DNA of 32,000 nt, from the NCBI RefSeq assembly GCF_000803625.1, contig NZ_CP007496.1, positions 630,001-662,000 on the forward strand, given 5' to 3'. Both the position numbers and the translations under genes were made by a program. This document shows positions 2,861 to 32,000 of this stretch, piece by piece; position 1 is the first letter of the stretch, and each line of letters begins with the position of its first letter. This DNA comes from Candidatus Nanosynbacter lyticus. Lineage in GTDB: Bacteria > Patescibacteriota > Saccharimonadia > Saccharimonadales > Saccharimonadaceae. The notes below the pieces were generated by a model, which was given only the letters and a program-made list of their open reading frames with translations, searched no databases and was not told the origin of the DNA.

Positions 2861-2863
2861 GTG

Positions 2864-4408: not shown

Positions 4409-4447
4409 TGCCTCGGAGCCTCCTTAACCTCCTTATTACGACAACAA

Positions 4448-6675: not shown

Positions 6676-6722
6676 CACAACCCTCCCCTGTTTATATTAC
6701 TAATGTTTTAATTGTAACACGT

Positions 6723-11961: not shown

Positions 11962-12032
11962 AATTGTCCTTTTAGTACCTCAAATCCAGTCTCTATTTTA
12001 CCATAATACGCGACATCCGTCGCAGAGACTCA

Positions 12033-12062
12033 TTGGACAAAAGTATCAGCTGGACGTATACT
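12033..12062 (+). promoter_or_regulatory. Candidate sigma70-type promoter for tRNA-Pro
   Basis: TTGGAC (12033-12038), an 18-nt spacer, then TATACT (12057-12062). The tRNA 5' end lies 11 nt further downstream. Confidence 0.35.
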
Positions 12063-12073
12063 GTTTTTAGCGT

Positions 12074-12150
12074 CGGGGTGTGGCGCAGCTTGGTAGCGCG
12101 CACCGTTCGGGACGGTGAGGTCGTCCGTTCAAATCGGATCACCCCGACCA
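12074..12150 (+). tRNA. tRNA-Pro (anticodon CGG), with encoded CCA
   Basis: Manual cloverleaf fold. The acceptor stem CGGGGTG/CACCCCG has 7 perfect pairs. The D arm is GCGC-AGCTTGGTA-GCGC. The anticodon arm is CACCG-TTCGGGA-CGGTG, giving anticodon CGG. The T arm is GTCCG-TTCAAAT-CGGAT, followed by a 3' ACCA. Confidence 0.9.
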
Positions 12151-12218
12151 TGGAAATTATTTGAAGCGCACGTTCACTAACTAGAACCTCTGGCTATAAG
12201 CAAAATAAAGGAGGTTTT

Positions 12219-12686
12219 ATGCAGCGGCGAGTTAATGTACGCGGAATTATTATTAACAACAAGGGTGAAATTTTTTGTCAAAAATTGACTGCAAATAACA
12301 GCAAAGGGCGTAATTTTTGGTGCACGCCAGGCGGCGGCTTGGAAATGGGCGAAAGCTTGCTCGACGGTCTACGCCGAGAAATGATTGAAGAAACGGGTAT
12401 CAAACCAGAAATCGGTAAGTTGTTATTTATACAACAATTCGCCGAATCGGGTGAGCAATCAGCGCATAGCCCGAACGAGCAATTGGAATTTTTCTTCCTT
12501 ATCACCAATTGGCAAGATTACCAGCACATTAACCTGGAGCAAACATCGCACGGCGTCGAGGAAGTGGCGGAATGCGGCTTTGTCGATCCGAAAACGACGC
12601 GAATTTTACCGAGTTATCTGACAGAGGTTGACCTGGACCAGCTAGTTAACAAATTGACAGAAGTTCCAGTTCTAAGCGAATTATAG
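12219..12686 (+). CDS. NUDIX hydrolase
   Basis: The Nudix box GGGLEMGESLLDGLRREMIEETGI matches GX5EX7REUXEEXGU. An AAGGAGG SD lies 5 nt upstream of the ATG. Confidence 0.85.
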   Translation: MQRRVNVRGIIINNKGEIFCQKLTANNSKGRNFWCTPGGGLEMGESLLDGLRREMIEETGIKPEIGKLLFIQQFAESGEQSAHSPNEQLEFFFLITNWQDYQHINLEQTSHGVEEVAECGFVDPKTTRILPSYLTEVDLDQLVNKLTEVPVLSEL

Positions 12687-12700
12687 CGAGGTCACTCGGG

Positions 12701-13423
12701 CTATTTGGCGAAGAATTTTTTAGCGCGCTCGGTTTTCGGATGATCCATTACCTGGGCTGGCGTACCGTTTTCGATTATTTCGCCCTTGTCCAGAAAAATC
12801 ATCCGCGTGCCGACCTCGCGGGCAAATTTCATCTCGTGCGTCACGATCACCATCGTCATGCCTTTTTCAGCAACTTTGCGAATCACATCCAGAACTTCGC
12901 CAATCATTTCTGGATCCAGCGCTGAAGTTGGCTCGTCAAACAGCATAATTTTTGGCTCCATCGCCAGTGCTCGAGCGATGGCTACCCGCTGTTTTTGGCC
13001 GCCCGATAAACTACTTGGCAAAGCATCTGCCTTATCGAGCAGCCCGACATCATCCAGCAAACTTCGCGCTAATTTTGTAGATTTTTGATCAGAAAACTTA
13101 CGTAGTTTTTTAGGTGCTAATTTAATATTCTCAATCACGCTCAGATTCGGGAATAAATTAAATTGCTGAAAAACCATACCGATAGTTTGGCGCAAAGCAT
13201 TCAAATTGACATGCCGATCGGTAATCTTAACACCATCAACAACAATTTCGCCGGATGTCGGCTCTTCCAGTAGATTCAAGCAGCGTAAAAACGTCGACTT
13301 GCCGGAGCCGCTGGAGCCAACCACCACGACAATTTCACCCTCGTCAATTTCCACGTCAATATCGCGCAGCACGCGGTTGGTACCAAATGTTTTCTTCAAA
13401 TTCTTAACGCTGATTATCGTCAT
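12701..13423 (-). CDS. Polar amino-acid ABC transporter, ATP-binding protein (GlnQ/HisP-like)
   Basis: 240 aa. Walker A is GSSGSGKST, the signature is LSGGQKQR, and Walker B is [11 protein letters not shown]. Confidence 0.9.
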
Positions 13424-14114
13424 GCTTCAACTTCCTTTCTACTCGTGCCATTACTCGTGTAAAAATCGCCGTCAAAATTAAATACATTGCCGCAGCAGCA
13501 AATAACGATTGAAAAGCTGTCGCTGTCTGGAAGCGAATATTGTCAGCGCCACGCATAATATCATTCAAGCCAATCCAGCCAACCACCGACGTTTCCTTTA
13601 ATAAAGCAATAAATTCGCTAATCAATGCTGGTAACGAATTTCTCATCGCTTGCGGTAAAATAACCAGCCGCATAGCTTGCCAATTGCTCAGACCCAGCGA
13701 CCGCGCTGCCTCCATTTGCCCCTTATCAATACTCTGGATACCACCACGAATAATCTCAGCAATGTACGCACCGCTGTTAATACCGAACGCCACCGCTGCC
13801 ACAAAAATCTTCGGCATAAATTGATACGAGCCAAACACCACGTAATACATAATTAACAATTGCACTAACAATGGCGTGCCGCGAATAATATCAACGTAAA
13901 GTTTCCCCAAGCCAGCCAGTGGATTAAATTTGGCAAGCTTCCCCGATTTCATCCTGCCAAATGGATGAAAATTCGACGTACACATCAGGGCGATAATTAT
14001 GCCAATTATTGAACCCAAAATAAGCGCTAAAACGGTTAAAACCAACGTTACTTCCAGACCGTGCCATAAAAACAACCAACGATCACCACCAAAAATTACC
14101 TCCCAAAAGTTCAC
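13404..14114 (-). CDS. Polar amino-acid ABC transporter permease (HisM/GlnP-like)
   Basis: 236 aa, with about 5 TM helices and an EAA-type loop ([22 protein letters not shown]). The GTG start overlaps the stop of the binding-protein gene (GTGA). Confidence 0.9.
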
Positions 14115-14902
14115 GACTTTACCTCCTCGCCAAAATATTTGCGAATTAATTTGTCGTAACGGCCGTCTTGTTTCATCTTAACAATTTCTTTATTAACCTT
14201 CTCTAGCAAATCCGTATTGTCTTTTTTAATGGCAATGGCATAGCTTTCGTTGCTAAGCGCGCCCGGCAAAATTTCCAAATCAGGAAAACCAGCCGTGTAC
14301 TGCTTGGCGGGAGCATCGTCCAGAATGACCGCCTCGATTTTCCCAGCACTTAGCTCCTGCAAAACGCTAGGCGCAGTCTGAAATTGAGTAACCGAGGCGC
14401 CAGCAATTTTTGATGCCAATGTGTCGCCAGTCGTACCCAGCTGCACACCTATTTTCCGCCCCGAAAGCTGATGCTTATTACGAATCGGACTACCCTTCTT
14501 AACAATTATGCGCTGCGACGCCGAATAATACGGCTCGGAAAATAATGCGTTTTTCGCCCGCTCCGGCGTTACCGTCATACCTGCTGCCACCATGTCAATT
14601 TGCCCACTGTCTAACGCCGGCAATAGCCCGTCAAATGACATGTCTTCAATTTTCAACTCTTTGCCCATACTTTTGGCAATTTCCCGCGCCAAATCAACAT
14701 CAAAGCCAACAATTTCATTATTATCAATATACTCAAACGGCTTAAAGCCAGCATTCGTCCCCATCACCAGCACATCAGTTTTCGAGCCAATCACGCCGTC
14801 GCGCTGCAAAATATCGCCCAGCATCAAGCAGATCATTCCAGCAAATAAAGCCAGTCCAATCCACCAACTAATCCCAAATGTACGCGCTTTATTCTTGCTC
14901 AT
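14111..14902 (-). CDS. Amino-acid ABC transporter substrate-binding protein (PBP type 3)
   Basis: It has an N-terminal signal/anchor helix, then KPFEYIDNNEIVGFDVDLAREIAK, typical of polar amino-acid binding proteins. I prefer the start at ATG 14902 (MSKNKART...): TATAAT sits 6 nt upstream, and the longer ORF would overlap the divergent gene. Confidence 0.85.
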   Translation of the reverse strand: MSKNKARTFGISWWIGLALFAGMICLMLGDILQRDGVIGSKTDVLVMGTNAGFKPFEYIDNNEIVGFDVDLAREIAKSMGKELKIEDMSFDGLLPALDSGQIDMVAAGMTVTPERAKNALFSEPYYSASQRIIVKKGSPIRNKHQLSGRKIGVQLGTTGDTLASKIAGASVTQFQTAPSVLQELSAGKIEAVILDDAPAKQYTAGFPDLEILPGALSNESYAIAIKKDNTDLLEKVNKEIVKMKQDGRYDKLIRKYFGEEVKS

Positions 14903-14908
14903 GCTTTT

Positions 14909-14914
14909 ATTATA
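14909..14914 (-). promoter_or_regulatory. -10 box 6 nt upstream of the binding-protein ATG; probable leaderless promoter
   Basis: The minus strand reads AAGGGTTATAATAAAAGCATG. Confidence 0.45.
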
Positions 14915-14942
14915 ACCCTTTCTCCCTAAAAAACGTAAGTGA

Positions 14943-14948
14943 TATAAT
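14943..14948 (+). promoter_or_regulatory. -10 box 6 nt upstream of the GTG start of the LtaS-like gene; probable leaderless promoter
   Basis: The plus strand reads GATATAATGTAGCAGTG. It is divergent from the box at 14909-14914, which lies 28 bp away. Confidence 0.45.
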
Positions 14949-14954
14949 GTAGCA

Positions 14955-16520
14955 GTGAAAAGAATTAAATTTACCAAGCGCTTCTGGGCGAAATTGATAT
15001 CAATTACCTTACTCTTTTTGGCAGCATTCTTCTTAATTGCGGCACGTTATAAATCGGTTGTCTTTAAAGACTCGCAGATTGATGAGATAATTTTCTATTT
15101 TGTCAACGGACTAGCCGGCGGTAAATCTGACAATTTATGGTCGGCCGTCCTGCAAAACCTACCCCTAGTTTTCTTACTATTCGGCATACTTCTCATCCCA
15201 GTTTCAAAAAAAACCGTTACCTACCTTAATCATGGAATTACATTTTGCCTTGATAAAATTAAATCATCAAGAAAAATCATCCTGCCATTTTTGAGATTAA
15301 AATACGCTTTAATTTATTCACTAACTATGTTTTTAATCTCACTCACACTACTCATTCAAAGCTTCGGTATTCCTGGCTATATTTACGCTCTAACTCAATC
15401 AACCAAACTATACGAAGAAAATTATGTTAACCCAAAAACCGCCAAATTAACCTTTCCTGATGAAAAACGCAATTTGATATATATCTATCTGGAATCGATG
15501 GAAAACACCCTAGCCTCAAAAGCCAATGGCGGCAGCGCTGACGTCTCTGTTATTCCGGAGCTAGAAGAATTGGCTCTGAAAAATACCTCATTTTCAAATA
15601 AGGCTTCTGGTCTAGGCGGTGCCTTACCAGCAACAAACACTGGCTGGACTGTCGCGGGCATGGCCGCCCAATCAGCTGGCGTTCCTCTAAAAGAAACTTT
15701 AGTTGGCGGACGCGACCATAACTCGCTAGGTGAGTTTAAGAAGTTTCTGCCGGGCGCCTATAGCCTAGGCGAAATCCTCCAAAAACAAGGTTATAATCAA
15801 ACATTTATCATGGGATCTGAGGCAAGTTTCGGCGGACGCGATAAACTACTCACACAACACGGTAATTTTACTATTCAGGATTATAATTACGCCAAACAGC
15901 ATGGTCAAATTACTGGCGATTATAAAGTTTGGTGGGGTTATGAGGATAAAAAATTATTCCAGTTTGCCCGCGAAGAAGCCTCACGTCTGGCTTCGTCAGA
16001 CAAGCCCTTTAATTTACAGCTGCTGACTGCTGACACGCATTTTACCGACGGCTATCTGGACGAAAATTGTGCTAAAAATTTTAATAATCAATACGATAAC
16101 GTCCACGCCTGCTCGTCCAAACAAGTGGCAGAATTCGTCAAATGGGTACAGTCTCAGCCTTTTTATAAAAATACTACAATTATAATTTCTGGCGACCACT
16201 TGGGTATGCAAACATCGTACTACGACGAAAAAACCGCCGGCACCAATTATCAGCGAACAATTTATAATGCGTTTATCAATCCAGCTACAACCACTGATCG
16301 TACAAGAAACCGCCGCTTTACGACCTTTGACATGTACCCATCAACCTTGGCGGCACTGGGTGTAAAAGTTGACGGCGAACGATTGGGACTGGGCACAAAT
16401 TTATTCTCTATTAAAGAAACTCTGGCCGAGCAATACGGTGGAATTGAAAATCTGAACGCCGAGCTCGCCAAACGTTCAGATTATTACGAAAAGAAGATTT
16501 TTACCAAATCTGGCAATTAA
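14955..16520 (+). CDS. LTA synthase / sulfatase (alkaline-phosphatase superfamily) membrane enzyme, LtaS/MdoB-like
   Basis: 521 aa. N-terminal TM helices are followed by an extracytoplasmic domain with YIYLESMEN, TADTHF and SGDHLG motifs typical of LtaS-family phosphoglycerol transferases. Confidence 0.8.
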   Translation: MKRIKFTKRFWAKLISITLLFLAAFFLIAARYKSVVFKDSQIDEIIFYFVNGLAGGKSDNLWSAVLQNLPLVFLLFGILLIPVSKKTVTYLNHGITFCLDKIKSSRKIILPFLRLKYALIYSLTMFLISLTLLIQSFGIPGYIYALTQSTKLYEENYVNPKTAKLTFPDEKRNLIYIYLESMENTLASKANGGSADVSVIPELEELALKNTSFSNKASGLGGALPATNTGWTVAGMAAQSAGVPLKETLVGGRDHNSLGEFKKFLPGAYSLGEILQKQGYNQTFIMGSEASFGGRDKLLTQHGNFTIQDYNYAKQHGQITGDYKVWWGYEDKKLFQFAREEASRLASSDKPFNLQLLTADTHFTDGYLDENCAKNFNNQYDNVHACSSKQVAEFVKWVQSQPFYKNTTIIISGDHLGMQTSYYDEKTAGTNYQRTIYNAFINPATTTDRTRNRRFTTFDMYPSTLAALGVKVDGERLGLGTNLFSIKETLAEQYGGIENLNAELAKRSDYYEKKIFTKSGN

Positions 16521-17530
16521 CTATTGTAGCCGCTCGGGTTGTTGCTCTGCCAATTCCAGGCATCCCGACAAGCTTCTTCGATAGTTAATTCCGCTCGCCA
16601 ACCTAGATCTTTTTCTGCCAAACTTGGATCAGCATAACATGCAGCGATGTCGCCCGGCCGGCGCGGCGTGATTTGGTATGGGACTTCCCGGCCCGACGCT
16701 GTTTCAAACGCTTTTACCAATTCCAACACTGACGTACCGCGGCCAGTGCCGATGTTATAAACCTTATATTCATCCGGCTCGCCCAAACGTTCCAGCGCCG
16801 CCACATGTGCCCGCGCCAAATCAACCACGTGAATATAATCACGCACACCCGTGCCATCCGGCGTATCATAATCATCGCCAAATACACTCAAGTGGTCGCG
16901 CTTGCCGACTGCCACCTGCGACACAAACGGCAGCAAATTATTCGGAATGCCCGACGGATCTTCGCCGATACGGCCGCTCAGATGAGCGCCAACGGGATTG
17001 AAATAGCGTAGTGAGGTAAACTGCCAGCCCTGCTTGGTCGCCGCCACGTCGCGCAGAATTTGCTCAATCATCAGCTTGGTTTGTCCGTACGGATTAGTCG
17101 CCGACAGCGGCATATCCTCGGTAATCGGCAGCCGCGCTGGGTCGCCGTACACCGTTGCTGAGCTGGAAAAGACCAACTTTTTCACATCAAATTCCTGCAT
17201 GACATCCAGTAGTGTCAATGTGCTCTCTAGGTTATTCTGGTAGTAGAGCAGCGCTTTTTCCACCGACTCACCGACAGCTTTCAGGCCCGCAAAATGAATC
17301 GCTGCGTCAATCGTCTCAGACTTAAATAACTCCACCAGCCGCGCTCGATCACAGAGATCAAACTCATAAAACGGTACAGACTGGCCGGTAATTTTCTCAA
17401 CCCGACGCAGGCTCTCAGCCGATGAATTTGATAAATTGTCGACCACCACCACGCCGTGTCCCGAGGCCAGCAGTTCAATGATAGTGTGGCTGCCGATATA
17501 CCCAGCACCGCCAGTAACGAGAATATTCAT
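16517..17530 (-). CDS. galE: UDP-glucose 4-epimerase
   Basis: 337 aa. It has the GGAGYIGSH Rossmann motif, the YGQTK catalytic YxxxK, and similarity to GalE along its whole length. An AAGGGG SD lies upstream. Confidence 0.92.
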   Translation of the reverse strand: MNILVTGGAGYIGSHTIIELLASGHGVVVVDNLSNSSAESLRRVEKITGQSVPFYEFDLCDRARLVELFKSETIDAAIHFAGLKAVGESVEKALLYYQNNLESTLTLLDVMQEFDVKKLVFSSSATVYGDPARLPITEDMPLSATNPYGQTKLMIEQILRDVAATKQGWQFTSLRYFNPVGAHLSGRIGEDPSGIPNNLLPFVSQVAVGKRDHLSVFGDDYDTPDGTGVRDYIHVVDLARAHVAALERLGEPDEYKVYNIGTGRGTSVLELVKAFETASGREVPYQITPRRPGDIAACYADPSLAEKDLGWRAELTIEEACRDAWNWQSNNPSGYNS

Positions 17531-23821: not shown

Positions 23822-25243
23822 ATGAGAATTCACAGAAAAAAAGAAAAAGCTCAATCAAAAAAAATATTCATCATACTTACTCTAGTAACTACACTTATAG
23901 TAACTATTTCTGGTGGAATATATTACCTTAGCCAATCACATTCACAAAAAATAACCGCCCCAACTGATGAAAAATATTATTTCACCGATTCGCGCTATTC
24001 TGGAGTTCGCTCAAAATTCGTGACCAGAAATAATAAACGAGAAAAGGTGTCGATTGAATACCCAATTACTGAAAATAAAAAAATCAACCACACCGTTGCT
24101 GAGGCGATTGATAAAATTGATCGTGATTTTCGCAGCACGGTCCTTTTATCTACAGCATTTGACCAGCCAATGACAGAGACTATCAGCTACCAAGTCATGC
24201 ATAATAATTCGGTAGCTCTGTCGATTATCACTAATATCAAGCAAGATATGCACGGCGCGCATCCGGTGTCGTTGACGCATTTTTGGACTTTTAATAAAAA
24301 ATCTGGCGAGATTATTAGCCTGAACGATTTGACCGATCAATCAAATGAGGCTATCGAAGCAATTATAAAATCCGCCAAAGATAATATTGCGGAGACAATT
24401 AAGAAGCGCGATAAACCAGAACTTGATCTTAATGGAATAATCACCAAAGAGACTCTATCTAATTTTGTTATTACTGACAATGGCAATAGTCTGGCTTGGC
24501 CACTTGGCCAGGCATCGCTACTACCGTCATCTTATGGCGAGATGACCATCACTGTGCCAATTTCTTCAGTCAGCAAATACCTACAAAATCCAACAGCTCG
24601 GAAACTAGCCAATATTCCCAAGCCACCCGAGCCAAAGCCAGAACCAGCGCCAGTACCCGCTGCGCCAACACCTGCACCAACCACTGGCAATAAAGTGATT
24701 GCCTTGACGTTTGATGATGGACCAGGTCCATACACCGCGCACCTACTGGACATCTTGGATCAGTATGGTGCGAAAGCGACATTTTTCTTGATTGGTAGCA
24801 AAGTTTCTGGGCAATCTAGCGTCGTACGCAGCATACAGGCGCGTGGTCATCAACTGGGTAATCACTCGTGGTCACATCCAGAACTACCTAAGCTATCGGT
24901 TGACCAAATTGCTGGCGAAATTGACCGTACTAACGAGGCCATCAGACAAGCCACTGGCGTCAAGCCGAGCATCTTGCGCCCGCCTTATGGTGCTGTCAAT
25001 GGTGTTGTCCTGGAACAGCTTCGCCTGCACGGTATGTCATCAATCTTGTGGTCGGTCGACACGCGGGATTGGGCTGATCGCAATAGCCAGATTGTCTGTT
25101 CACGTGCCGTCGCTGGCGCTCGTCCTGGAGCCGTCATCTTGATGCACGACATCCACCAAACTTCCGTCAATGCCGTGCCGTGCATCCTAAGCTCACTGAA
25201 GCAGCAGGGATATTCGTTCGTGACGATACAGCGACTACATTAG
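23822..25243 (+). CDS. Membrane-anchored polysaccharide/peptidoglycan deacetylase, PdaC-like (TM, DUF3298/RsiV-like domain, Pro-rich linker, NodB domain)
   Basis: 473 aa. The NodB motifs are ALTFDDGPGPYT and GNHSWSHP. The linker is PKPPEPKPEPAPVPAAPTPAPT. The N-terminal TM anchor and middle domain are arranged as in B. subtilis PdaC. Confidence 0.85.
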   Translation: MRIHRKKEKAQSKKIFIILTLVTTLIVTISGGIYYLSQSHSQKITAPTDEKYYFTDSRYSGVRSKFVTRNNKREKVSIEYPITENKKINHTVAEAIDKIDRDFRSTVLLSTAFDQPMTETISYQVMHNNSVALSIITNIKQDMHGAHPVSLTHFWTFNKKSGEIISLNDLTDQSNEAIEAIIKSAKDNIAETIKKRDKPELDLNGIITKETLSNFVITDNGNSLAWPLGQASLLPSSYGEMTITVPISSVSKYLQNPTARKLANIPKPPEPKPEPAPVPAAPTPAPTTGNKVIALTFDDGPGPYTAHLLDILDQYGAKATFFLIGSKVSGQSSVVRSIQARGHQLGNHSWSHPELPKLSVDQIAGEIDRTNEAIRQATGVKPSILRPPYGAVNGVVLEQLRLHGMSSILWSVDTRDWADRNSQIVCSRAVAGARPGAVILMHDIHQTSVNAVPCILSSLKQQGYSFVTIQRLH

Positions 25244-25470
25244 TCCACCTGATCAATCTCAAATATCTTGTATTTCGAAGATGGGCCGTGCAGCAATTTT
25301 ACCTTTGAGGGTGCCACGCCGAGATGTTTTGCTAGTAGTTTCGCCGCCGCTAGATTCGCTCGCCCTTCAATGGCTGGCGCCTTGGTGTAGATTGTCAGCG
25401 AACCATCATCGTTCGGGACGACTTCTTCGCGGTGGCGAGAGTTGGGTTTGAGATGGACGGAGATTTTCAT
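25240..25470 (-). CDS. DUF167 (YggU/UPF0235) family protein
   Basis: The sequence is MKISVHLKPNSRHREEVV...IYTKAPAIEGRANLAAAKLLAKHLGVAPSKVKLLHGPSSKYKIFEI. The KP...G.AN pattern is typical of YggU. The start at 25470 avoids overlap with hsdR. Confidence 0.75.
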   Translation of the reverse strand: MKISVHLKPNSRHREEVVPNDDGSLTIYTKAPAIEGRANLAAAKLLAKHLGVAPSKVKLLHGPSSKYKIFEIDQVD

Positions 25471-25480
25471 GATTATTTTA

Positions 25481-28400
25481 TCAATCCAGCAAACTCGCTC
25501 CGCCGCCAGCGTCATACGCTGCGCGTTTTTGGCTCCATTCGTTACTATAACGTTTGGCTTGTTCTAATACCATGTCAGTTGCCAACGCCTGCTGATCTGG
25601 CGGGTAGCCATATTTTGCCAGCGTCTTTTTGACGTTAACTTTCAGTTTTGCCTGAACATTCCTGCGCTCTGCCCAGTCAATCGTCGCATCACGACGCACC
25701 TGCTCTAACAATACTTTTGCGATATCACGTAGCTGTGCGTCACCCAGTACTTCACGAGCACTGCCATTTTCAACCAGCGCATCGTAAAAGATAATCTCAT
25801 CCTCGCTGAGGCCATCAACCACTCCGTTCTCAACAGTCTGGCGAATTTTCTGTCCAATGTTGATTAATTCCTCAATCACCTGCGCTGCCTCAATCGTGCC
25901 ATTTCTATACCGTGTCAAGGCTTGATCGAGCAAGTCAGAGAACTTGGTATCCTTGGCATAATTTCTCGAAAATCGTAGTTTAATTTCATCAGCCAGCAGT
26001 TTTTGCAAAGCCTCCACCGCCAAATTCTTGCGCTCCATGTTACGAATTTCCGCCAAAAACTCATCACTCAAAATTGACAGTTCCGGCTTTTCTAATCCTG
26101 CCGCCTCAAACACATCAACCACACCAACTGGCGCAATTGCTTTATCGACAATTTGTTTCAGCGCACTGCGATACTCAGCGTCAGTCACCACTGCCGAGCT
26201 GGACACTTTCTCCAGCCGAGCTTTCACCGCCTGGAACAGTGCCACTTCTTCGCGAATTTCCAGCGCCTCAGGCCTCGGCATCGCCAATGCAAATGCTTTA
26301 CTCAGTTCCAAAACATGCTGCTTCAACCGCTTCTCACCGTCTTCCAACCCTAAAATATATTCCTCGGCATCCAAAATAATTTGCAGTTGCTGGCTAGTTG
26401 GTGTGGTAAAATATCGCTGATAGTCAAAGTTACCAAACAAATCGCGCACCACTTCATAGCGCATCTGCATCTGTGCCACCGCCTCAGTAATATCAAGCTG
26501 CGGTGCGCCTTGACCACCACTTTGCGTATAGTCAGAAATAGCATCGCGCAGCGCCCCCGCTACACCCAGATAGTCAACCACCAAACCGCCAGTTTTTCCA
26601 GGGAACACTCGATTTACCCTGGCAATCGCTTGCATCAAATTATGCCCTTTGAGCGGTTTATCTAGATACATGGTGTGCATATTTGGCACATCAAATCCCG
26701 TCAGCCACATGTCGCACACAATCACCAATTCAAGCGGGTCATTTGGATCTTTGATACGCTTTTCGATTGCCTTTACTCGCTGTTTGTTACGAATGTGCGG
26801 TTGCAGGTAGTCGGGGTCGCTAGCACTACCGGTAATAATCACCTTTATCGCGCCGCGCGCGTCATCGTCACTGTGCCAATCCGGCCGATACGCCACAATT
26901 TTTTCATACAAATCAACCGCAATACCACGACTCATCGTCACGATCATACCTTTACCACTTAGGACACTTTGCCGGGTCTCAAAGTGCTCAATGATATCCA
27001 AAGCGATAGTATTCAGCCGCTCGCTATTACCGACAATGGCTTCTTTTTGTGCATACTCGGCCTTCAACGCATCCTGATGGCTCAGTTCTTCGCCCTCCAG
27101 CAAATCATCAACTTCCTTATCCAGCCACTGCCGCGTTGCCTCATCCATATTCAAATCAACCAGCCGGCTCTCATAATAAATCGGCACCGTTGCACCATCT
27201 TTCACCGCCTGCTCGACATCATAAATATCGATATAGTCGCCAAACACTACTGGCGTTGACTTATCGTCCGTTTCAATCGGCGTGCCCGTAAAGCCAATGT
27301 AGCTCGCACCCGGCAAGGCATCGCGCATATACTTGGCGTAACCATACACCAGCTGAGCATCACTAGCTCGGACATGCGCCTTCAAGCCATATTGACTGCG
27401 GTGCGCCTCATCTGCCATCACGATGACATTGCGTCGATCAGTCAGGACTGGCAAGCTATCCTCCTCGTCCTCGGGCGAGAACTTCTGGATTGTCGTAAAG
27501 ATAATTCCACCCGCCTGGCGCTGCAACAGTTTCCTCAGCTCACTGCGTGAATCGGCCTGCTTCGGGTCTTCTCCTAATAGCTCGCGACAGGCGCTAAACG
27601 TGCCAAATAACTGACCATCAAGATCATTACGATCCGTCACCACCACGATGGTTGGGTTATGCAAATCGCGCGATTTCATCAGTTTGCCAGTATAAAACAC
27701 CATACTCAAGCTCTTGCCCGACCCTTGCGTATGCCAAACCACACCAGCCCGCTGGTCGCCACGTTCACTACTGGCCGTTAATGTTCGATCAAGTGCCTTA
27801 TTCACTACCCAATATTGATGATAAGCGGCAACTTTTTTGATCAATTTATCGCCATCACCTCGCTCAAATACGATAAAATTCTGCACCACATCTAGCAAAC
27901 GTTCGGGCGTACACGCACCACGCAGCAATACCTCCAACATCGGCACATTGCCAGCTTCCTTTTCGCCGTCAATCGTTTTCCACGACATCATTCGCTCCAA
28001 CGGGCTGGTGATCGTGCCCATCTCTGCCTCTAGTCCATCGCTCGTCACGCACAATTCATTAAAGCGGAACAGATCACTAATCTCTCGCTTGTACGTCTGG
28101 ATTTGCTGATACGCTGCCACCAAATCGGCCTTCGTATCAGCCGCATTTTTTAGTTCAATCACCACTAGAGGCAACCCATTTACAAACAGCACGATGTCCG
28201 GCCGGCGATTATGGTCGCCTTGCAGAACCGTCAGCTGATTGACCGCCACAAAATCGTTGCTGTGTGACGAGGTAAAATCAACCACCCGCACAATATCGTG
28301 TTTCACTTCACCACTTGGTGCGCGATACTGTACTGGTACGCCCGCTATCAACAGCTGATGAAAATCATGATTATTCTCAATTAAACTTGGTTTACTAATC

Positions 28401-28615
28401 TGCGTCAACCGCCGCATCGCTTCATTCAAGGCTGGTTCTGGAATGTGCGGATTGAGCCGCGCCAAAGCACTATATAGACGCCCAGGCAATACCACCTGCC
28501 TGAGCTCACGCTCAGCTATAGCACCATCTGGACCAATATCTGGTCCATGCAGAATTTGCCAGCCGAGATTAGCTAGGATATCAAGCGCATATTGTTCGAT
28601 TTGAGATTCGGTCAT
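25481..28615 (-). CDS. hsdR: Type I restriction enzyme, R (restriction/translocase) subunit
   Basis: About 1044 aa from MTESQIEQYALDILANLGW. It has the nuclease motif PDIVLFVNGLPLVVIELK, helicase motif I HTQGSGKSLSM, DEAH box MADEAHRSQ, and a C-terminal helical domain. TATAAT (28625-28630, minus) lies 9 nt upstream of the ATG. Confidence 0.93.
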   Translation of the reverse strand: MTESQIEQYALDILANLGWQILHGPDIGPDGAIAERELRQVVLPGRLYSALARLNPHIPEPALNEAMRRLTQISKPSLIENNHDFHQLLIAGVPVQYRAPSGEVKHDIVRVVDFTSSHSNDFVAVNQLTVLQGDHNRRPDIVLFVNGLPLVVIELKNAADTKADLVAAYQQIQTYKREISDLFRFNELCVTSDGLEAEMGTITSPLERMMSWKTIDGEKEAGNVPMLEVLLRGACTPERLLDVVQNFIVFERGDGDKLIKKVAAYHQYWVVNKALDRTLTASSERGDQRAGVVWHTQGSGKSLSMVFYTGKLMKSRDLHNPTIVVVTDRNDLDGQLFGTFSACRELLGEDPKQADSRSELRKLLQRQAGGIIFTTIQKFSPEDEEDSLPVLTDRRNVIVMADEAHRSQYGLKAHVRASDAQLVYGYAKYMRDALPGASYIGFTGTPIETDDKSTPVVFGDYIDIYDVEQAVKDGATVPIYYESRLVDLNMDEATRQWLDKEVDDLLEGEELSHQDALKAEYAQKEAIVGNSERLNTIALDIIEHFETRQSVLSGKGMIVTMSRGIAVDLYEKIVAYRPDWHSDDDARGAIKVIITGSASDPDYLQPHIRNKQRVKAIEKRIKDPNDPLELVIVCDMWLTGFDVPNMHTMYLDKPLKGHNLMQAIARVNRVFPGKTGGLVVDYLGVAGALRDAISDYTQSGGQGAPQLDITEAVAQMQMRYEVVRDLFGNFDYQRYFTTPTSQQLQIILDAEEYILGLEDGEKRLKQHVLELSKAFALAMPRPEALEIREEVALFQAVKARLEKVSSSAVVTDAEYRSALKQIVDKAIAPVGVVDVFEAAGLEKPELSILSDEFLAEIRNMERKNLAVEALQKLLADEIKLRFSRNYAKDTKFSDLLDQALTRYRNGTIEAAQVIEELINIGQKIRQTVENGVVDGLSEDEIIFYDALVENGSAREVLGDAQLRDIAKVLLEQVRRDATIDWAERRNVQAKLKVNVKKTLAKYGYPPDQQALATDMVLEQAKRYSNEWSQKRAAYDAGGGASLLD

Positions 28616-28624
28616 ACTGCGACA

Positions 28625-28630
28625 ATTATA
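28625..28630 (-). promoter_or_regulatory. -10 box for hsdR (separate promoter; very short or no leader)
   Basis: The minus strand reads GGTGTATAATTGTCGCAGTATG. Confidence 0.4.
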
Positions 28631-28669
28631 CACCAGTTGTCTTGGATCCCAGAATTATAATGTTTGTTG

Positions 28670-28678
28670 TGCTATAAT
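28670..28678 (+). promoter_or_regulatory. Extended -10 (TGCTATAAT) candidate promoter for the plus-strand 270-aa/PIN gene pair
   Basis: The plus strand reads TTGTTGTGCTATAATAG, about 35 nt upstream of ATG 28713 and divergent from the hsdR promoter. Confidence 0.4.
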
Positions 28679-28712
28679 AGATATGTATTAATAAGTGGGT
28701 GGAACAGGTAAG

Positions 28713-29507
28713 ATGAGTAAGGGCGGTCTATATTTTTCGATTGACGATAAGCTAATGGATGAAAAGATTAGCTTAAACAACGTTTCTTTACCGATTTTAA
28801 AAGATTTCATTGAACAAGTATCTATTTTTATTCGTGGTAACGAGTCAGTTGACTTAAATGGAGTCAAAATTGCAATTAAACCTGGTTCGGTCGCAATAGT
28901 TGTAGAAGAAACACCACTAATCAAAACTGCCATTAGTGAATATCGCATCATAAAGTCAAGCGGCGACTTAGGAAAAATTAGTCCCGTTCGTGCAAAGGTC
29001 ATAGCAAATCTCCAAGAAAAAGTAAGGAAAAATCCCAGTAGGCTTTATACAATATCTGATAACATCGACTCTGCGTTTATAGACCAAAATTCAATTAAAA
29101 TATCTTTGGACTCGAGTTATAAGATTGTTCATGCCGATCAGTGGGTCGATACAGAGGCTTATTTGTATGGTAGAGTATTTAACATGGGAGGTAAAAGCAA
29201 GTCTAACGTTCACATTACTTTATCCAATGGCACCAACATAAAACTTGATACTAACGAAGACATTCTTGCCGATGACAATAAGAACCGGCTCTACAAAGAA
29301 CAACTCGTCCGAGTAAAGGCTCAACGAAATCTCCGCACAAAAGAGTTGCGGAACGAACGACTGGTTTCTTTTGAATATTATGAACCCCATTTTAATGAAG
29401 ACGAGTTTATCAAACAAGTCGCCAGAACTAAACTAGCTTGGAAAGATATACCTGACATAGTTAGCTGGGTGGAAGAAGTAAGAGGTAATCATGCTAAGAC
29501 AACCTAG
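28713..29507 (+). CDS. Hypothetical protein (~264 aa), upstream partner of the PIN-domain gene; no family recognised
   Basis: The ORF runs 28695-29507, and I prefer ATG 28713 (MSKGGLYFSIDD...). It is AT-rich. Its last 17 nt overlap the PIN ORF. I could not identify any diagnostic motif. Confidence 0.55.
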   Translation: MSKGGLYFSIDDKLMDEKISLNNVSLPILKDFIEQVSIFIRGNESVDLNGVKIAIKPGSVAIVVEETPLIKTAISEYRIIKSSGDLGKISPVRAKVIANLQEKVRKNPSRLYTISDNIDSAFIDQNSIKISLDSSYKIVHADQWVDTEAYLYGRVFNMGGKSKSNVHITLSNGTNIKLDTNEDILADDNKNRLYKEQLVRVKAQRNLRTKELRNERLVSFEYYEPHFNEDEFIKQVARTKLAWKDIPDIVSWVEEVRGNHAKTT

Positions 29508-29997
29508 ACAATCTGTACTAATAGACACTAGCTTTCTTATTACTCTTTTTGACAACTCGCGCCCTAATCATGAGGTAGCTAAGAAATATTATAAGTATTT
29601 CATTGATAATAATATAGATATGTATCTCTCTGCTATTGTTGCATCAGAGTATGAGTACAAAGACTCAATCGATCCTATACTAGATACTGGCAATTTTATA
29701 CCTCTTCCCTTTAATCTTGATGACTCAAAGCTAGCCGGTAGTTTCGCCAGCAGGCTGCATTCAGAATCTAGAGGCAAGCATACATCGCGAGATTCAGCAA
29801 AGGACGACGTAAAGTTACTTGCTCAATGTTCAAACCACAGTATAGATTTTGTTGCCACCGACGACACCTCGACCATGGCAAAATATTGTCGACGACTCAA
29901 TACTATGGATGAGTCGCGAACAAAAGTAATTACACTAGACTGTTTCGATGTAAGTGATTTTAACGGTGGTCAGACCGAGCTAGATATAAACTTTTAA
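29491..29997 (+). CDS. PIN-domain nuclease (VapC-like)
   Basis: 168 aa. The N-terminal SVLIDTSFLI supplies the first acidic residue, followed by ASEYEY, AKDDVKLLAQC and VATDDTS. This is the D...E...D...D spacing of PIN domains. An AAGAGGT SD lies 5 nt upstream. Confidence 0.6.
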   Translation: MLRQPRQSVLIDTSFLITLFDNSRPNHEVAKKYYKYFIDNNIDMYLSAIVASEYEYKDSIDPILDTGNFIPLPFNLDDSKLAGSFASRLHSESRGKHTSRDSAKDDVKLLAQCSNHSIDFVATDDTSTMAKYCRRLNTMDESRTKVITLDCFDVSDFNGGQTELDINF

Positions 29998-30005
29998 TAA
30001 CTATC

Positions 30006-31559
30006 CTAACTCGGTATATCTCTAAACAAATCAACCTCCTGGCGATCAATAGATATTTTATTCGTCTCCCTGATGCCTTGTAGTATATCGACGTCAACTA
30101 TACTTGTGTCTCTAACTGTTTTCATTATGTCGTCCTTTAGCCAATCAATACACCAGATAATAGAATTATCAATATATGCTCTTTCACTGACTGACCGGGT
30201 TAATAATTCATTAAATTGCAAGTCCGGATCAATAGAGTAAGATACTCGCTGCAACCAAATATCTAATAAGCCAGTGTTAGGTATAATCTTGAACTTATCA
30301 AGAATTTTTTGAACAAGGAGTCCCCTCCTTGACTCACCCGCCCCACGGATAGTTAGACTCGCAACCGCCATCGCCATATTGTAGTATTTAGGGTTTTTAA
30401 TTGCCATATTAACTACAATACTCAGCATAACTTCTGGTTTTTCATAATGACGTAAGCTTTTTCCTTGATCTAAGTAATCAAGAAGTTCCTCGTGAAACAT
30501 ATTTAGCTGGCGAGACACCATACCTGAATTAGGATATTTATAACTAGCTGCATAAATCTGCATTAACCATTTTGCAAAATTATCTTTTTCTTTCTTTATA
30601 TTCGGTATAAATAATTCTTCGATCTTATCCTTTTTAATAGAACTCAAGACTATATCGCTGCTCTTTTTGGTCTTCTGTGCATTTAATCTAAGACCAAGTA
30701 TTGCTAAAATTTCAGTTAACTCTTTCAGTATACGAGCTCCTAGATCTAGCCTATTGGTAAAAATTCGATAGTCATCCCTGTAGCGAACAATGGAATATTC
30801 TCTTTTATCAATATCTTTTATAGCTTGAGCTAAAAGATTATCAGCATATGCAAAGATAAGCTCAGCAATAAAATCAGAAAGAGTGTTTCCCTGAGGTATC
30901 CCATTTGTTTGTCGATGATTCATCATCTGAAAATGCTCATCAATTTTACCTCCCAAAGATTTTTTATCACGGTTAGCATAAGCCTCGTCTTTACCATGAA
31001 GAGCCCATGAAATAGAATGCGTATATATTGATCCATAACAGTTTGCAACATCAGTTTCTAAGACATATCGAAACTCAAGACCTTTAGCCGCACAGTTTTG
31101 CTCAAATTTCTCCCACCAAGCACGTATTTGCTCCGCTTTCGCGCTTTTCTTTTTTGAGGGTTGCACTGGAATACTAGCAACTTCAATATTACAACCCCTC
31201 CTTAACTCAGAAAATCGCTTTTTTATAACACTCCAATTATCCTCTTTAGTGATATAATGCACTAACCCTACATAAAGAACCGGATTTATTATCTCAAATG
31301 GCCTCCAGGCTAGTTCACCGTCTTTGTTGCCGTAAATCACTTTATTTACATCATGTCTATCTCGTGGGTCTTTCTTCTTACGGCCACCATCCTCTGGATC
31401 AAAAAAATAATTAACATCATAACCGCCCATCTTACTTGACACAGCTTGAAGTATTGGATCAAAGTTAAAATATTCAGGCAAATCAAAGTTTACATAACTT
31501 TTACCGTCCAGCAAAAAAGCACGAGCTTGCTTATGATCAAGTTCTAATATATTAGCCAT
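30006..31559 (-). CDS. Reverse transcriptase, UG/Abi (AbiA/AbiK/Abi-P2/DRT)-like, with a C-terminal alpha-helical domain
   Basis: 517 aa. RT motif A is YVLETDVANCYGSI (D170). Motif B is NGIPQGNTLSDFIAEL. Motif C is IVRYRDDYRIF, with YRDD at nt 30771-30782. Motif D/E is LGLRLNAQKT. The ~200-aa helical tail has no endonuclease or maturase motifs. Its ATG overlaps the hsdS stop (TAATG). Confidence 0.8.
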   Translation of the reverse strand: MANILELDHKQARAFLLDGKSYVNFDLPEYFNFDPILQAVSSKMGGYDVNYFFDPEDGGRKKKDPRDRHDVNKVIYGNKDGELAWRPFEIINPVLYVGLVHYITKEDNWSVIKKRFSELRRGCNIEVASIPVQPSKKKSAKAEQIRAWWEKFEQNCAAKGLEFRYVLETDVANCYGSIYTHSISWALHGKDEAYANRDKKSLGGKIDEHFQMMNHRQTNGIPQGNTLSDFIAELIFAYADNLLAQAIKDIDKREYSIVRYRDDYRIFTNRLDLGARILKELTEILAILGLRLNAQKTKKSSDIVLSSIKKDKIEELFIPNIKKEKDNFAKWLMQIYAASYKYPNSGMVSRQLNMFHEELLDYLDQGKSLRHYEKPEVMLSIVVNMAIKNPKYYNMAMAVASLTIRGAGESRRGLLVQKILDKFKIIPNTGLLDIWLQRVSYSIDPDLQFNELLTRSVSERAYIDNSIIWCIDWLKDDIMKTVRDTSIVDVDILQGIRETNKISIDRQEVDLFRDIPS

Positions 31560-32000
31560 TATATCTTAATCTCTCCGGAAATTAATTTTGGTAAAAGCAA
31601 ATCACGAATTTTGGACAAATAATCTATTTGCTTCTTGTTTTCATGTATCATATCAAACAATGGTCGCACCATCTGCTCGAAATCATCAAACTCGCAATCT
31701 GATAAATCAACAATTTCCAAAAGCTCTATGTGCTTTGGATAAATATGCGGCTGACCAGAGCCAGTTTGCATATCGTATATCTCTTTTTGCTTGTTCTTGA
31801 GGAATAAATAGTAGGTATAAACATATTTGGTAATTGTTGAGTCAATGTACGAAGAGTCTGCCGACCATACTGGTTCACCCCAAACAGACACAAAACCAGC
31901 ATTTGCTCCGGATGCACTTATCGTGATAACTGGCGCGGTCGTATTTGCTTCATTGTGAAATCCGGCTGGCTTCAGTCCACCGCTAATAACCGGTGTGTCA
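31559..32000 (-). CDS. hsdS: Type I restriction-modification specificity subunit; N-terminal part lies beyond the window
   Basis: The frame is open from base 32000: DTPVISGGLKPAGFHNEANTTAPVITISASGANAGFVSVWGEPVWSADSSY... This is typical of a target-recognition domain. It ends with the conserved HsdS tail QIDYLSKIRDLLLPKLISGEIKI. The track shows only the part after an internal GTG. Confidence 0.85.
   Translation of the reverse strand, partial: DTPVISGGLKPAGFHNEANTTAPVITISASGANAGFVSVWGEPVWSADSSYIDSTITKYVYTYYLFLKNKQKEIYDMQTGSGQPHIYPKHIELLEIVDLSDCEFDDFEQMVRPLFDMIHENKKQIDYLSKIRDLLLPKLISGEIKI

What the first reader, a model, noticed from the sequence alone, without database searches (positions are those of the whole stretch)
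25481..32000. Type I R-M locus split by a three-gene cargo (RT, PIN nuclease, unknown protein) at the hsdS/hsdR junction: candidate composite or guard-type defense system
Seen in the sequence, on the minus strand: hsdS (31559-32000, partial) is followed by a 517-aa reverse transcriptase whose ATG overlaps the hsdS stop. Next come two opposite-strand genes, an unknown ~270-aa protein and a PIN nuclease. Last is hsdR, with its own TATAAT promoter. So the S and R subunits of one restriction enzyme are separated by ~2.9 kb of cargo. By eye, that cargo is clearly more AT-rich than hsdR and most of the window. I saw no integrase, transposase or flanking repeats.

Established knowledge: in the EcoprrI locus (hsdM-hsdS-prrC-hsdR) the anticodon nuclease PrrC sits at exactly this junction. 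It is held latent by the R-M complex and released when phage T4 Stp inhibits restriction. UG/Abi reverse transcriptases and PIN nucleases are both recognised anti-phage components.

Inference: the RT, with or without the PIN pair, may be a second-line module physically or functionally coupled to the type I enzyme, for example triggered by anti-restriction proteins. I do not know of a described system with this RT + PIN + type I combination.
Basis: partly seen in the sequence, partly recalled or inferred. Interest (0 to 1): 0.88.

Follow-up and report, generated by a model that had tools for sequence, protein, structure and literature searches.

The report
Restriction operon carrying two independent defence inserts
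In the tiny oral epibiont TM7x, a type I restriction-modification operon has picked up a known anti-phage reverse transcriptase (AbiP2 family) and, separately, an uncharacterised two-gene PIN-nuclease cassette; this is a well-documented way for bacteria to stack defences, not a new composite system.

Summary
On the minus strand, hsdS is followed by a 517-aa RT (stop and start overlap, TAATG). Then come an opposite-strand pair (264/270-aa protein plus PIN) and an intact hsdR. The window is Ca. Nanosynbacter lyticus TM7x.

- The RT is a full-length AbiP2-family Abi polymerase (PADLOC E=4e-171; PDB 7R08 E=6e-72). YRDD and the priming tyrosine are conserved. It is a known single-gene system.
- The PIN pair is a separate module. 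It is a precise 1,365-bp indel, absent from sister genomes whose RT is 97% identical. Elsewhere it occurs without any RT.
- Embedding of defence genes in type I R-M operons is already described (Payne et al. 2024; PrrC; TgvAB).

Of 56 informative loci carrying this RT clade, 36 lie in hsdM-hsdS-RT-hsdR operons, across many phyla. Against specific coupling:
- 20 of the 56 loci have no hsd genes.
- RT divergence does not track Hsd divergence.
- A natural hsdR-deletion strain keeps an identical RT.

The U270-PIN cassette is also often found in the same slot and matches no defence model. It is the only possibly new element.

Verdict: layered but independent defences in an R-M embedding hotspot. 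Interest is moderate to low.

The parts
31559..32000 (-). hsdS, C-terminal 146 aa (gene continues beyond the window; 369 aa in the full locus)
   Evidence: PADLOC Specificity_I E=5e-37, positions 254-397 of 403. Full gene with Methylase_S seen in L002, which is 100% identical over the overlap. GC 0.39.
30006..31559 (-). AbiP2-family Abi polymerase (class 1 UG/Abi reverse transcriptase), 517 aa. ATG overlaps the hsdS stop by 1 nt.
   Evidence: PADLOC AbiP2 E=4e-171, 4-484 of 489. PDB 7R08 Abi-P2 E=6e-72, residues 2-493. YRDD at 260-263 and Y30 (aligned to priming Tyr61) are invariant in A1. 100% identical to TM7x_03560.
29491..29997 (+). PIN-domain nuclease, 168 aa, second gene of the U270-PIN cassette. 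Its stop lies 8 nt from the RT stop (convergent).
   Evidence: PF01850 E=3e-6. D12, E53, D106 and D125 invariant in 19 homologs. Directly downstream of U270 in 30 of 34 metagenome loci.
28714..29507 (+). U270: uncharacterised 264-aa protein (ORF opens at GTG 28695, likely start ATG 28714), first gene of the cassette. N-terminal alpha/beta domain plus a C-terminal OB-like beta-barrel.
   Evidence: No Pfam, NCBIfam or PADLOC hit. 643 family representatives by HMM. AF2 pLDDT 74. Weak but recurrent OB-fold matches. Start inferred from the alignment.
28640..30004 (.). 1,365-bp insertion relative to sister Saccharibacteria genomes. Contains only the U270-PIN cassette and its upstream region.
   Evidence: blastn against L009/L010: the RT block ends at window 30005 and the hsdR block starts at 28639. 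The two blocks are 1 nt apart in L009/L010.
28616..28713 (.). Divergent intergenic region. Extended -10-like TGcTATAAT (28670-28678, + strand) upstream of U270. TATAAT on the minus strand (28659-28654) upstream of hsdR. Both lie in the inserted segment.
   Evidence: Read directly from the sequence. Not scored by the consensus scan. Function not tested.
25481..28633 (-). hsdR, type I restriction subunit, intact (1050 aa from GTG 28633; likely start ATG 28615)
   Evidence: Pfam HSDR_N, SWI2_SNF2, T1R_D3-like, T1RH-like_C; TIGR00348 E=1e-180; PADLOC REase_I 1145 bits. DEAH and D..ExK motifs visible in the translation. GC 0.49.

Best explanation
This is a type I restriction-modification operon of Ca. 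Nanosynbacter lyticus TM7x. Its variable middle, between the conserved hsdM and hsdR genes, has accumulated independent anti-phage modules. This is an instance of the described 'embedding' of defence genes in R-M operons.

Module 1 is HsdM/HsdS/HsdR, which restricts unmethylated DNA.

Module 2 is an AbiP2-family Abi polymerase. I infer that it is co-transcribed and translationally coupled with hsdM-hsdS. By homology it forms trimers or hexamers and uses Tyr30 to prime template-independent ssDNA synthesis. It aborts infection after an unknown phage trigger and needs no Hsd proteins.

Module 3 is a separately acquired two-gene cassette, transcribed divergently from hsdR. A catalytically intact PIN RNase is the effector or toxin. 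I infer that the 264-aa OB-like partner is its antitoxin or sensor.

The modules act as parallel layers: restriction first, abortive modules as back-up.

I infer two reasons for the slot preference. Cassettes are exchanged by recombination between conserved hsdM/hsdR flanks, and cargo hitch-hikes on a constitutively expressed, hard-to-lose operon.

Shown: gene identities, catalytic residues, modularity, mosaicism and the context statistics. Inferred: transcription units, triggers, the toxin/antitoxin roles and the reason for the slot preference.
For: RT identity:
- PADLOC AbiP2 E=4e-171, full length.
- 7R08 Abi-P2 E=6e-72 over residues 2-493.
- YRDD and the priming tyrosine conserved.
- AbiP2 is described as a stand-alone multi-domain defence protein. 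It sits alone in a P2-prophage hotspot.

Modularity:
- L009/L010 have hsdS>RT>hsdR with a 97%-identical RT and no PIN pair. The pair is a clean 1,365-bp indel.
- U270-PIN occurs alone near integrases, next to a type II R-M, and in hsdM-hsdS-U270-PIN-...-hsdR operons without any RT. Once it sits beside an embedded CBASS.

Generic slot:
- Other cargo occupies the same junctions in other loci: RhuM, KAP NTPase, GmrSD, AbiH and CBASS.

Mosaicism:
- hsdM and hsdR GC are 0.48-0.49; everything between them is 0.36-0.42.
- Against L009, RT is 96% identical, hsdM and hsdR 90%, hsdS and KAP cannot be aligned, and flanking housekeeping genes are 76-81%.

No specific coupling:
- 36 embedded against 20 solo loci, interspersed in the RT tree.
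- Spearman RT vs HsdM/HsdR/HsdS = 0.15/0.03/0.05, not significant.
- L001 has a microhomology-mediated 1.1-kb hsdR deletion and an hsdM frameshift, yet its hsdS, RT, PIN and U270 are 100% identical.

Precedent:
- Payne et al. 2024, TgvAB and PrrC.
Against: - The embedding rate of this RT clade is very high: 36 of 56 informative loci. HsdS is the immediate upstream neighbour in 17 of 68, usually with overlapping or near-abutting stop and start. This spans many phyla and at least two HsdR families. For comparison, Payne et al. report one embedded instance against 1,273 non-embedded for DRT type III. A purely passive hotspot does not obviously predict such a family-specific preference.
- The sample is the 80 nearest relatives of an embedded query, so the rate may be inflated.
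- No experiment shows that this RT or the PIN cassette defends against any phage, or that they are independent of Hsd proteins.
- The U270 model is only moderate (pLDDT 74) and its fold matches are weak, so the antitoxin/sensor role is a guess.
Confidence: 0.7

Rival explanations
1. PrrC-like guard. This AbiP2 clade is functionally coupled to the type I enzyme. It is kept latent by, or senses the state of, HsdM/HsdS(/HsdR), and fires when a phage anti-restriction protein disables restriction.
For: - Position and orientation are the same as prrC: between hsdS and hsdR, with a stop/start overlap.
- 36 of 56 informative loci are embedded, across Saccharibacteria, Bacteroidota, Spirochaetota, Desulfobacterota, Proteobacteria, Melainabacteria and others.
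- Replicated in independent metagenome contigs with a different HsdR family.
- Guard systems for R-M exist: PrrC and PARIS.
Against: - 20 of 56 loci have no hsd gene within 10 kb.
- Family members sit alone in P2 prophages and on plasmids, and AbiP2 is reported as stand-alone.
- There is no co-divergence with HsdM/R/S. Partner Hsd proteins fall to 14-18% identity.
- hsdS next to a 96%-identical RT has been swapped for one that cannot be aligned.
- The L001 strain has lost hsdR and has a frameshifted hsdM, yet retains an identical RT.
- Unrelated cassettes use the same slot.
- The RT has no extra domain relative to Abi-P2.
Confidence: 0.13
2. Three-gene composite. The RT, the 264-aa protein and the PIN nuclease form one system, for example with the RT product activating the PIN effector.
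For: - The genes are adjacent in TM7x.
- The same arrangement occurs in one more divergent Saccharibacterium (L091: RT homolog 513 aa, U270 69% identical).
- Many UG/Abi RTs do work with nuclease partners.
Against: - The PIN pair is on the opposite strand and is a precise indel, absent from L009/L010.
- None of the other 77 genomic RT loci has PIN or U270.
- None of the 38 metagenome U270 loci has an RT.
- AbiP2 is a stand-alone class 1 RT.
Confidence: 0.03
3. U270-PIN is simply a toxin-antitoxin addiction module that stabilises the island or the mobile DNA it rides on. It has no anti-phage role of its own.
For: - Bicistronic, overlapping genes with a catalytically intact VapC-like PIN as the second gene.
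- Found near integrases, serine recombinases and an IS66 transposase in several contexts.
- No hit to any PADLOC defence model.
Against: - At least 11 of 38 metagenome loci (some redundant) place it inside type I R-M operons after hsdS, once beside an embedded CBASS. By the guilt-by-embedding logic this predicts defence with a high success rate.
- The upstream partner (264 aa, OB-like, no RHH/AbrB/PHD DNA-binding antitoxin domain) is unlike VapB.
- No close relatives were found in the viral contig collection.
Confidence: 0.25

Closest known systems
Abi-P2 (AbiP2) of P2-like prophages of E. coli: class 1 UG/Abi reverse transcriptase, PDB 7R08
   Same: Full-length homology covering the RT-like palm/fingers and the C-terminal helical domain. 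YRDD active site and a tyrosine aligned with priming Tyr61. AT-rich relative to the host. Single-gene architecture with no room for an ncRNA.
   Different: About 33% identity to the E. coli protein. Lies in a CPR/Saccharibacteria chromosome, inside a type I R-M operon, not in a prophage hotspot. Activity and phage target are untested.
PrrC / EcoprrI (hsdM-hsdS-prrC-hsdR)
   Same: An abortive-infection gene in the same junction and orientation within a type I R-M operon.
   Different: No sequence relationship (ABC-ATPase anticodon nuclease versus RT). PrrC is almost exclusively embedded, whereas this RT clade is embedded in about half to two-thirds of loci and works as a family outside R-M. No evidence of masking by Hsd proteins. 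A natural hsdR-deleted strain keeps the RT.
Defence systems genetically embedded in type I R-M/BREX/DISARM/Hma (Payne et al. 2024); TgvAB in V. cholerae VPI-2; Rlo genes of C. jejuni
   Same: Independent defence cassettes are inserted between hsd genes. [quoted passage not shown] Cargo is variable between related strains.
   Different: The cargo here is AbiP2 plus an unnamed U270-PIN pair, and both junctions (M/S and S/R) are occupied. The host is a 0.7-Mb CPR epibiont.
VapBC-type PIN toxin-antitoxin modules and HEC-03 (ABC ATPase + PIN)
   Same: Two overlapping genes with a VapC-like PIN carrying four conserved acidic residues as the downstream gene. HEC-03 shows that PIN pairs embedded in defence operons can be anti-phage.
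   Different: The upstream partner is neither a small VapB-type antitoxin nor an ABC ATPase. It is a 264-aa protein with no Pfam domain and an OB-like barrel. It matches no PADLOC model.

Membership tests
AbiP2 (class 1 UG/Abi RT) | Full-length match to the family profile, covering both the RT domain and the C-terminal helical (alpha-repeat) domain | tested here: met
   PADLOC PDLC03744 AbiP2 E=4.1e-171, protein 1-513 against profile 4-484 of 489. The next best model (RT_UG14) scores 1e-51. 7R08_A E=6e-72, residues 2-493.
AbiP2 (class 1 UG/Abi RT) | Y(R/V)DD polymerase active site | tested here: met
   YRDD at residues 260-263. R259, R261, D262, D263 and Y264 are invariant in 25 homologs.
AbiP2 (class 1 UG/Abi RT) | N-terminal tyrosine used for protein priming (Tyr61 in Abi-P2) | tested here: met
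   Window Y30 (LPEY) aligns with LPAY61 of 7R08. Y30 and P28 are invariant in A1. Tyr61's role is described.
AbiP2 (class 1 UG/Abi RT) | Trimer/hexamer assembly, template-independent protein-primed DNA synthesis, and an anti-phage phenotype as a single gene | not testable with these tools
   Needs biochemistry and plaque assays.
Type I restriction-modification system | HsdR with an N-terminal nuclease, an SF2 motor and a C-terminal domain | tested here: met
   HSDR_N, SWI2_SNF2/ResIII, T1R_D3-like and T1RH-like_C. TIGR00348 scores 603 bits against a cutoff of 285.
Type I restriction-modification system | HsdS and HsdM present in the same operon | tested here: met
   The hsdS C-terminus is in the window. 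Full hsdS (369 aa, Methylase_S) and hsdM (486-495 aa, HsdM_N + N6_Mtase) are on contigs identical to the window over 7 kb.
PrrC-like R-M guard (embedded latent Abi effector) | Gene located between hsdS and hsdR, co-oriented | tested here: met
PrrC-like R-M guard (embedded latent Abi effector) | Near-exclusive occurrence inside type I R-M loci | tested here: not met
   36 embedded against 20 solo among informative loci. 2 of 4 independent metagenome contigs are solo. P2 prophage and plasmid copies have no type I hsd genes.
PrrC-like R-M guard (embedded latent Abi effector) | Homology to PrrC/RloC (ABC ATPase plus anticodon nuclease) | tested here: not met
   None of the cargo proteins matches a PrrC/RloC model in PADLOC.
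PrrC-like R-M guard (embedded latent Abi effector) | Physical association with Hsd proteins and activation by anti-restriction factors | not testable with these tools
   Indirect evidence only: no RT-Hsd co-divergence, and the RT is retained in an hsdR-deleted strain.
VapBC-type PIN toxin-antitoxin | PIN domain with four conserved acidic catalytic residues | tested here: met
   D12, E53, D106 and D125 invariant in 19 sequences. PF01850 scores 28.2 bits against a cutoff of 23.6.
VapBC-type PIN toxin-antitoxin | Small upstream antitoxin with an RHH/AbrB/PHD-type DNA-binding domain | tested here: not met
   The upstream partner is 264 aa with no Pfam or NCBIfam domain. The model shows an alpha/beta domain plus an OB-like barrel.

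The most novel reading that the evidence does not exclude
Two readings remain open.

(a) This AbiP2 clade is not just cargo. It is functionally wired to type I enzymes in general, for example by sensing a conserved feature of inhibited or stalled HsdM2S(R2) complexes. That would explain why roughly half to two-thirds of its members sit directly after hsdS, across phyla and across R-M families.

(b) The U270-PIN pair is a previously unnamed anti-phage system: an OB-like nucleic-acid sensor plus a PIN RNase. Its natural home is the same hsdS/hsdR slot.

The probability given is for (a). For (b) I would put the probability at about 0.4 and the interest if true at about 0.5.
Probability: 0.13. Interest if true: 0.75.

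Novelty: new member of a known kind. Interest (0 to 1): 0.38.

Why it matters
The locus shows that even a 0.7-Mb CPR epibiont spends about 10 kb (about 1.5% of its genome) on a stacked defence operon. The stack exchanges horizontally faster than the surrounding genome: the R-M/RT blocks are 90-96% identical between species whose flanking genes are 76-81% identical.

Two leads could be followed up.
- The AbiP2 clade has an unusually high rate of embedding at the hsdS/hsdR junction. If this survives a phylogeny-aware census, it makes 'do Abi polymerases read the state of restriction enzymes?' directly testable.
- The U270-PIN cassette is an unannotated, recurrently R-M-embedded candidate defence system.

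TM7x now has a tractable phage (Xhp1, PMC13578794), so these modules could be tested in their native host.

None of this makes the locus a new kind of system.

Tried and rejected
- A look-up of the RT with its stop codon included found nothing. It succeeded once repeated with P0001.
- The hsdS/hsdR mentions in the AbiK/Abi-P2 and AbiA papers are only E. coli strain genotypes, not biology.
- I found no text reporting AbiP2 specifically embedded in type I R-M. Payne et al.'s main text and the held supplements do not mention AbiP2. Absence from the searchable library is not proof of novelty.
- Flanking direct or inverted repeats around the cargo: only chance-level short matches.
- ncRNA partner for the RT (as in DRT2 or retrons): no Rfam hit in the window, and there is no intergenic space.
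- The promoter/terminator consensus scan was not enriched over shuffles and gave nothing in the hsdR/U270 intergenic region.
- U270 relatives in viral contigs: none.
- RT-Hsd co-divergence was tested and not found.
- The idea that embedded RTs form one dedicated clade is rejected. They are scattered over almost all RT clusters, although nearest neighbours share a context in 39 of 55 cases, against about 54% expected by chance.

Full report
**Origin and anatomy**

The RT is 100% identical to TM7x_03560 of Candidatus Nanosynbacter lyticus TM7x, a Saccharibacteria/CPR epibiont. A metagenome contig (L002) is 100% identical to window 25000-32000.

- hsdR, 25481-28633 (-)
- a 270-aa ORF, 28695-29507 (+)
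- PIN, 29491-29997 (+)
- a 517-aa RT, 30006-31559 (-)
- the C-terminal 146 aa of hsdS, 31559-32000 (-)

The hsdS stop and the RT start overlap by one base (TAATG). The RT and PIN stop codons converge with 8 nt between them.

Contigs that extend beyond the window show the whole operon: RadC | hsdM - RhuM (truncated) - KAP NTPase - hsdS - RT | PIN<, U270< | hsdR - YggU. The R-M operon is therefore interrupted at both the M/S and the S/R junctions.

hsdM (GC 0.48) and hsdR (0.49) look like the host. Everything between them is AT-rich at 0.36-0.42, and that includes hsdS. There are no integrases, transposases or meaningful repeats nearby.

**What the RT is**

It is a full-length member of the AbiP2 family.
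- PADLOC AbiP2 scores E=4e-171 over 4-484 of 489 profile positions. The next best model is 120 orders of magnitude worse.
- It aligns over residues 2-493 with the solved Abi-P2 structure 7R08 (E=6e-72).
- The YRDD active site (260-263) is invariant across 25 homologs.
- Tyr30 aligns with Tyr61, the protein-priming residue of Abi-P2, and is also invariant.

Abi-P2 and AbiK are trimeric or hexameric polymerases that make untemplated ssDNA, using a tyrosine of their own as the primer (PMC9508834). AbiP2 is described as a stand-alone multi-domain defence protein. It is found in AT-rich hypervariable regions of P2 prophages and on plasmids. I saw that prophage context in an E. coli record myself.

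No ncRNA family matches anywhere in the window, and there is no intergenic room for one.

**Is the RT linked to type I R-M?**

Yes, statistically. An alignment-based scan of one genome per GTDB species returned 80 loci, the nearest relatives at 39-100% identity, from many phyla.

With my own ORF calls and iterated HMMs:
- 38 of 80 loci carry hsd genes.
- Among the 44 loci with at least 3 kb of upstream and 3.5 kb of downstream flank, 26 carry hsd genes.
- In 17 of those 44, hsdM/S lie upstream and hsdR downstream on the RT strand.

Independent Pfam counts agree. 17 of 68 immediate upstream neighbours are Methylase_S, and 10 of 74 immediate downstream neighbours are HSDR_N proteins. Most of the remaining neighbours are other defence genes: GmrSD, AbiH, Eco57I/MmeI-type enzymes, STALD, STAND NTPases and AbiEii-like ATPases.

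Where HsdS is the immediate upstream neighbour, its stop and the RT start mostly overlap or lie within about 50 nt.

Four extra metagenome contigs gave two more hsdM-hsdS-RT-hsdR operons, with a different HsdR family (EcoR124_C type), and two non-R-M defence islands.

For scale, Payne et al. report one embedded instance against 1,273 non-embedded for DRT type III, and call PrrC 'almost exclusively' embedded. This AbiP2 clade lies in between. One caveat applies: the sample consists of the nearest relatives of an embedded query.

**Is that linkage functional coupling?**

The evidence leans against a specific partnership.
- 20 of 56 informative loci have no hsd gene within 10 kb. Embedded and solo RTs are interspersed through nearly all RT clusters.
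- Pairwise RT identity does not track HsdM, HsdR or HsdS identity (Spearman 0.15, 0.03, 0.05; permutation tests not significant). Partner Hsd proteins fall to 14-18% identity, which means different type I families.
- Between TM7x and L009/L010 the RT is 95-96% identical. The adjacent hsdS cannot be aligned except for its last 50 nt or so, and the M/S-junction cargo differs.
- A natural TM7x-like strain (L001) has a 1,118-bp internal hsdR deletion at an 8-nt microhomology (GTGGTGGT) and a frameshifted hsdM. Its hsdS, RT, PIN and U270 are 100% identical to the window. So the RT is tolerated, and has so far been retained, without an intact restriction enzyme.
- The RT has no extra domain relative to Abi-P2.

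**The PIN pair is a separate module**

Relative to L009/L010, window 28640-30004 is a clean 1,365-bp insertion. It contains only the U270-PIN cassette and its upstream region. In those genomes the RT stop and the hsdR start are 8-26 nt apart.

Neither has been tested, and the consensus scan scored neither.

None of the other 77 genomic RT loci has PIN or U270.

Conversely, the cassette has a life of its own:
- U270 is followed directly by PIN in 30 of 34 metagenome loci.
- It occurs alone near integrases or recombinases, and next to a type II R-M.
- At least 11 of 38 metagenome loci (some redundant) show hsdM>hsdS>U270>PIN>...hsdR> without any RT.
- In one of those cases it sits beside an embedded patatin + SMODS CBASS.
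- One divergent Saccharibacterium (L091) has the same RT + PIN-pair arrangement as TM7x.

The four PIN catalytic acidic residues (D12, E53, D106, D125) are invariant.

U270 has no Pfam, NCBIfam, PADLOC or PDB relative. It nevertheless belongs to a real family, with 643 representatives at 50% identity and a uniform length of about 260 aa. A moderate AF2 model (pLDDT 74) shows an N-terminal alpha/beta domain and a C-terminal five-stranded barrel. That barrel weakly but repeatedly matches OB-fold proteins: IF1, CspA, the LysRS anticodon-binding domain, the DNA-ligase OB domain and SSB.

**Mechanism I commit to**

The hsdM...hsdR interval is an embedding hotspot that stacks independent defences.

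Restriction by HsdM2S1R2 is the first layer. The AbiP2 polymerase is probably co-transcribed and translationally coupled with hsdM-hsdS. It acts as a stand-alone abortive-infection module through Tyr30-primed untemplated DNA synthesis. Its trigger is unknown.

U270-PIN is a second back-up module. The PIN RNase is the effector. I infer that the OB-like partner is its antitoxin or sensor.

The slot preference probably has two causes: exchange of the variable middle by recombination between the conserved hsdM and hsdR flanks, and hitch-hiking on a constitutively expressed, hard-to-lose operon. The supporting observations are the AT-rich mosaic block and the R-M/RT blocks that are 90-96% identical between species whose flanking genes are only 76-81% identical.

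My confidence is about 0.7. A PrrC-like guard role for the RT stays possible (about 0.13). A three-gene composite is essentially excluded (about 0.03).

**Comparison with known systems and novelty**

Embedding of defence cassettes in type I R-M operons is established. The examples are PrrC/EcoprrI, the Rlo genes of C. jejuni, TgvAB in V. cholerae VPI-2 and the 'guilt-by-embedding' survey. AbiP2 is a known system.

The locus is therefore a new member of known kinds, in an unusual host. The two items I could not find described are:
- the high rate at which this AbiP2 clade is embedded at the hsdS/hsdR junction;
- the U270-PIN cassette as a recurrent R-M-embedded candidate system that is absent from PADLOC-DB v2.

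TM7x now has an experimentally tractable phage (PMC13578794), so both could be tested in the native host.

Interest: 0.38.

Noticed in passing
beyond the window; L002 7228-8895 (the same contig as the window): The hsdM/hsdS junction also carries cargo: a truncated RhuM (120 aa, against 340 aa in L009 and L091) and a 431-aa KAP-family NTPase. L009 and L010 carry unrelated 666-aa and 685-aa proteins in that position.
   Followed up: partly
L001 12927-14953 and 5774-7232: A natural TM7x-like strain has a 1,118-bp internal hsdR deletion at an 8-nt microhomology (GTGGTGGT) and a frameshifted hsdM. Its hsdS, RT, PIN and U270 are 100% identical to the window.
   Followed up: yes
L011 (Ca. Minimicrobia vallesae IHU2, NZ_CP076459) 10001-16563: In this complete genome the RT has a 1-nt frameshift, hsdR a 1-nt frameshift, and the middle about 450 nt of U270 is replaced by unrelated sequence. 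This could be decay of the island or sequencing error; I did not resolve which.
   Followed up: partly
L127/L128 (metagenome), genes between hsdS and hsdR: A patatin phospholipase plus a SMODS/AGS-C cyclase (CBASS-like) sit with U270-PIN inside one type I R-M operon. Several independent systems are stacked in the same slot.
   Followed up: partly
L099 4765-8542 and L102 7001-13916: In both non-R-M contexts looked up for RT homologs, a MazG-like protein plus an SLFN-g3-type helicase pair lies next to or near the RT. In L099 the helicase stop overlaps the RT start.
   Followed up: no
window 29997-30006: The RT and PIN genes converge with only 8 nt between their stop codons and no terminator-like structure. 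Their transcripts would overlap as antisense unless they terminate inside the neighbouring gene.
   Followed up: no
window 1910-6678 (-): A complete arginine deiminase operon: carbamate kinase (1910-2860), a DcuC-type carrier (2864-4408), ornithine carbamoyltransferase (4448-5437) and arginine deiminase (5437-6678).
   Followed up: no
window 25240-25515 (-): The YggU/DUF167 gene start overlaps the 3' end of hsdR by 35 nt. The R-M island therefore abuts housekeeping genes with no spacer.
   Followed up: no
window 28695-29507, residues 88-160 of U270: A weak PHROG hit to a family labelled 'major head protein' (phrog_29786, E=2.7e-5), and one to phrog_19868 (unknown function, E=1.8e-5). Two uncharacterised phage proteins, one of them DUF6575, are the best BFVD fold matches (E about 1e-5).
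   Followed up: partly
L009/L010 compared with L002: The R-M/RT blocks are 90-96% identical between Saccharibacteria species whose flanking housekeeping genes are only 76-81% identical. This suggests recent horizontal exchange of the island.
   Followed up: partly
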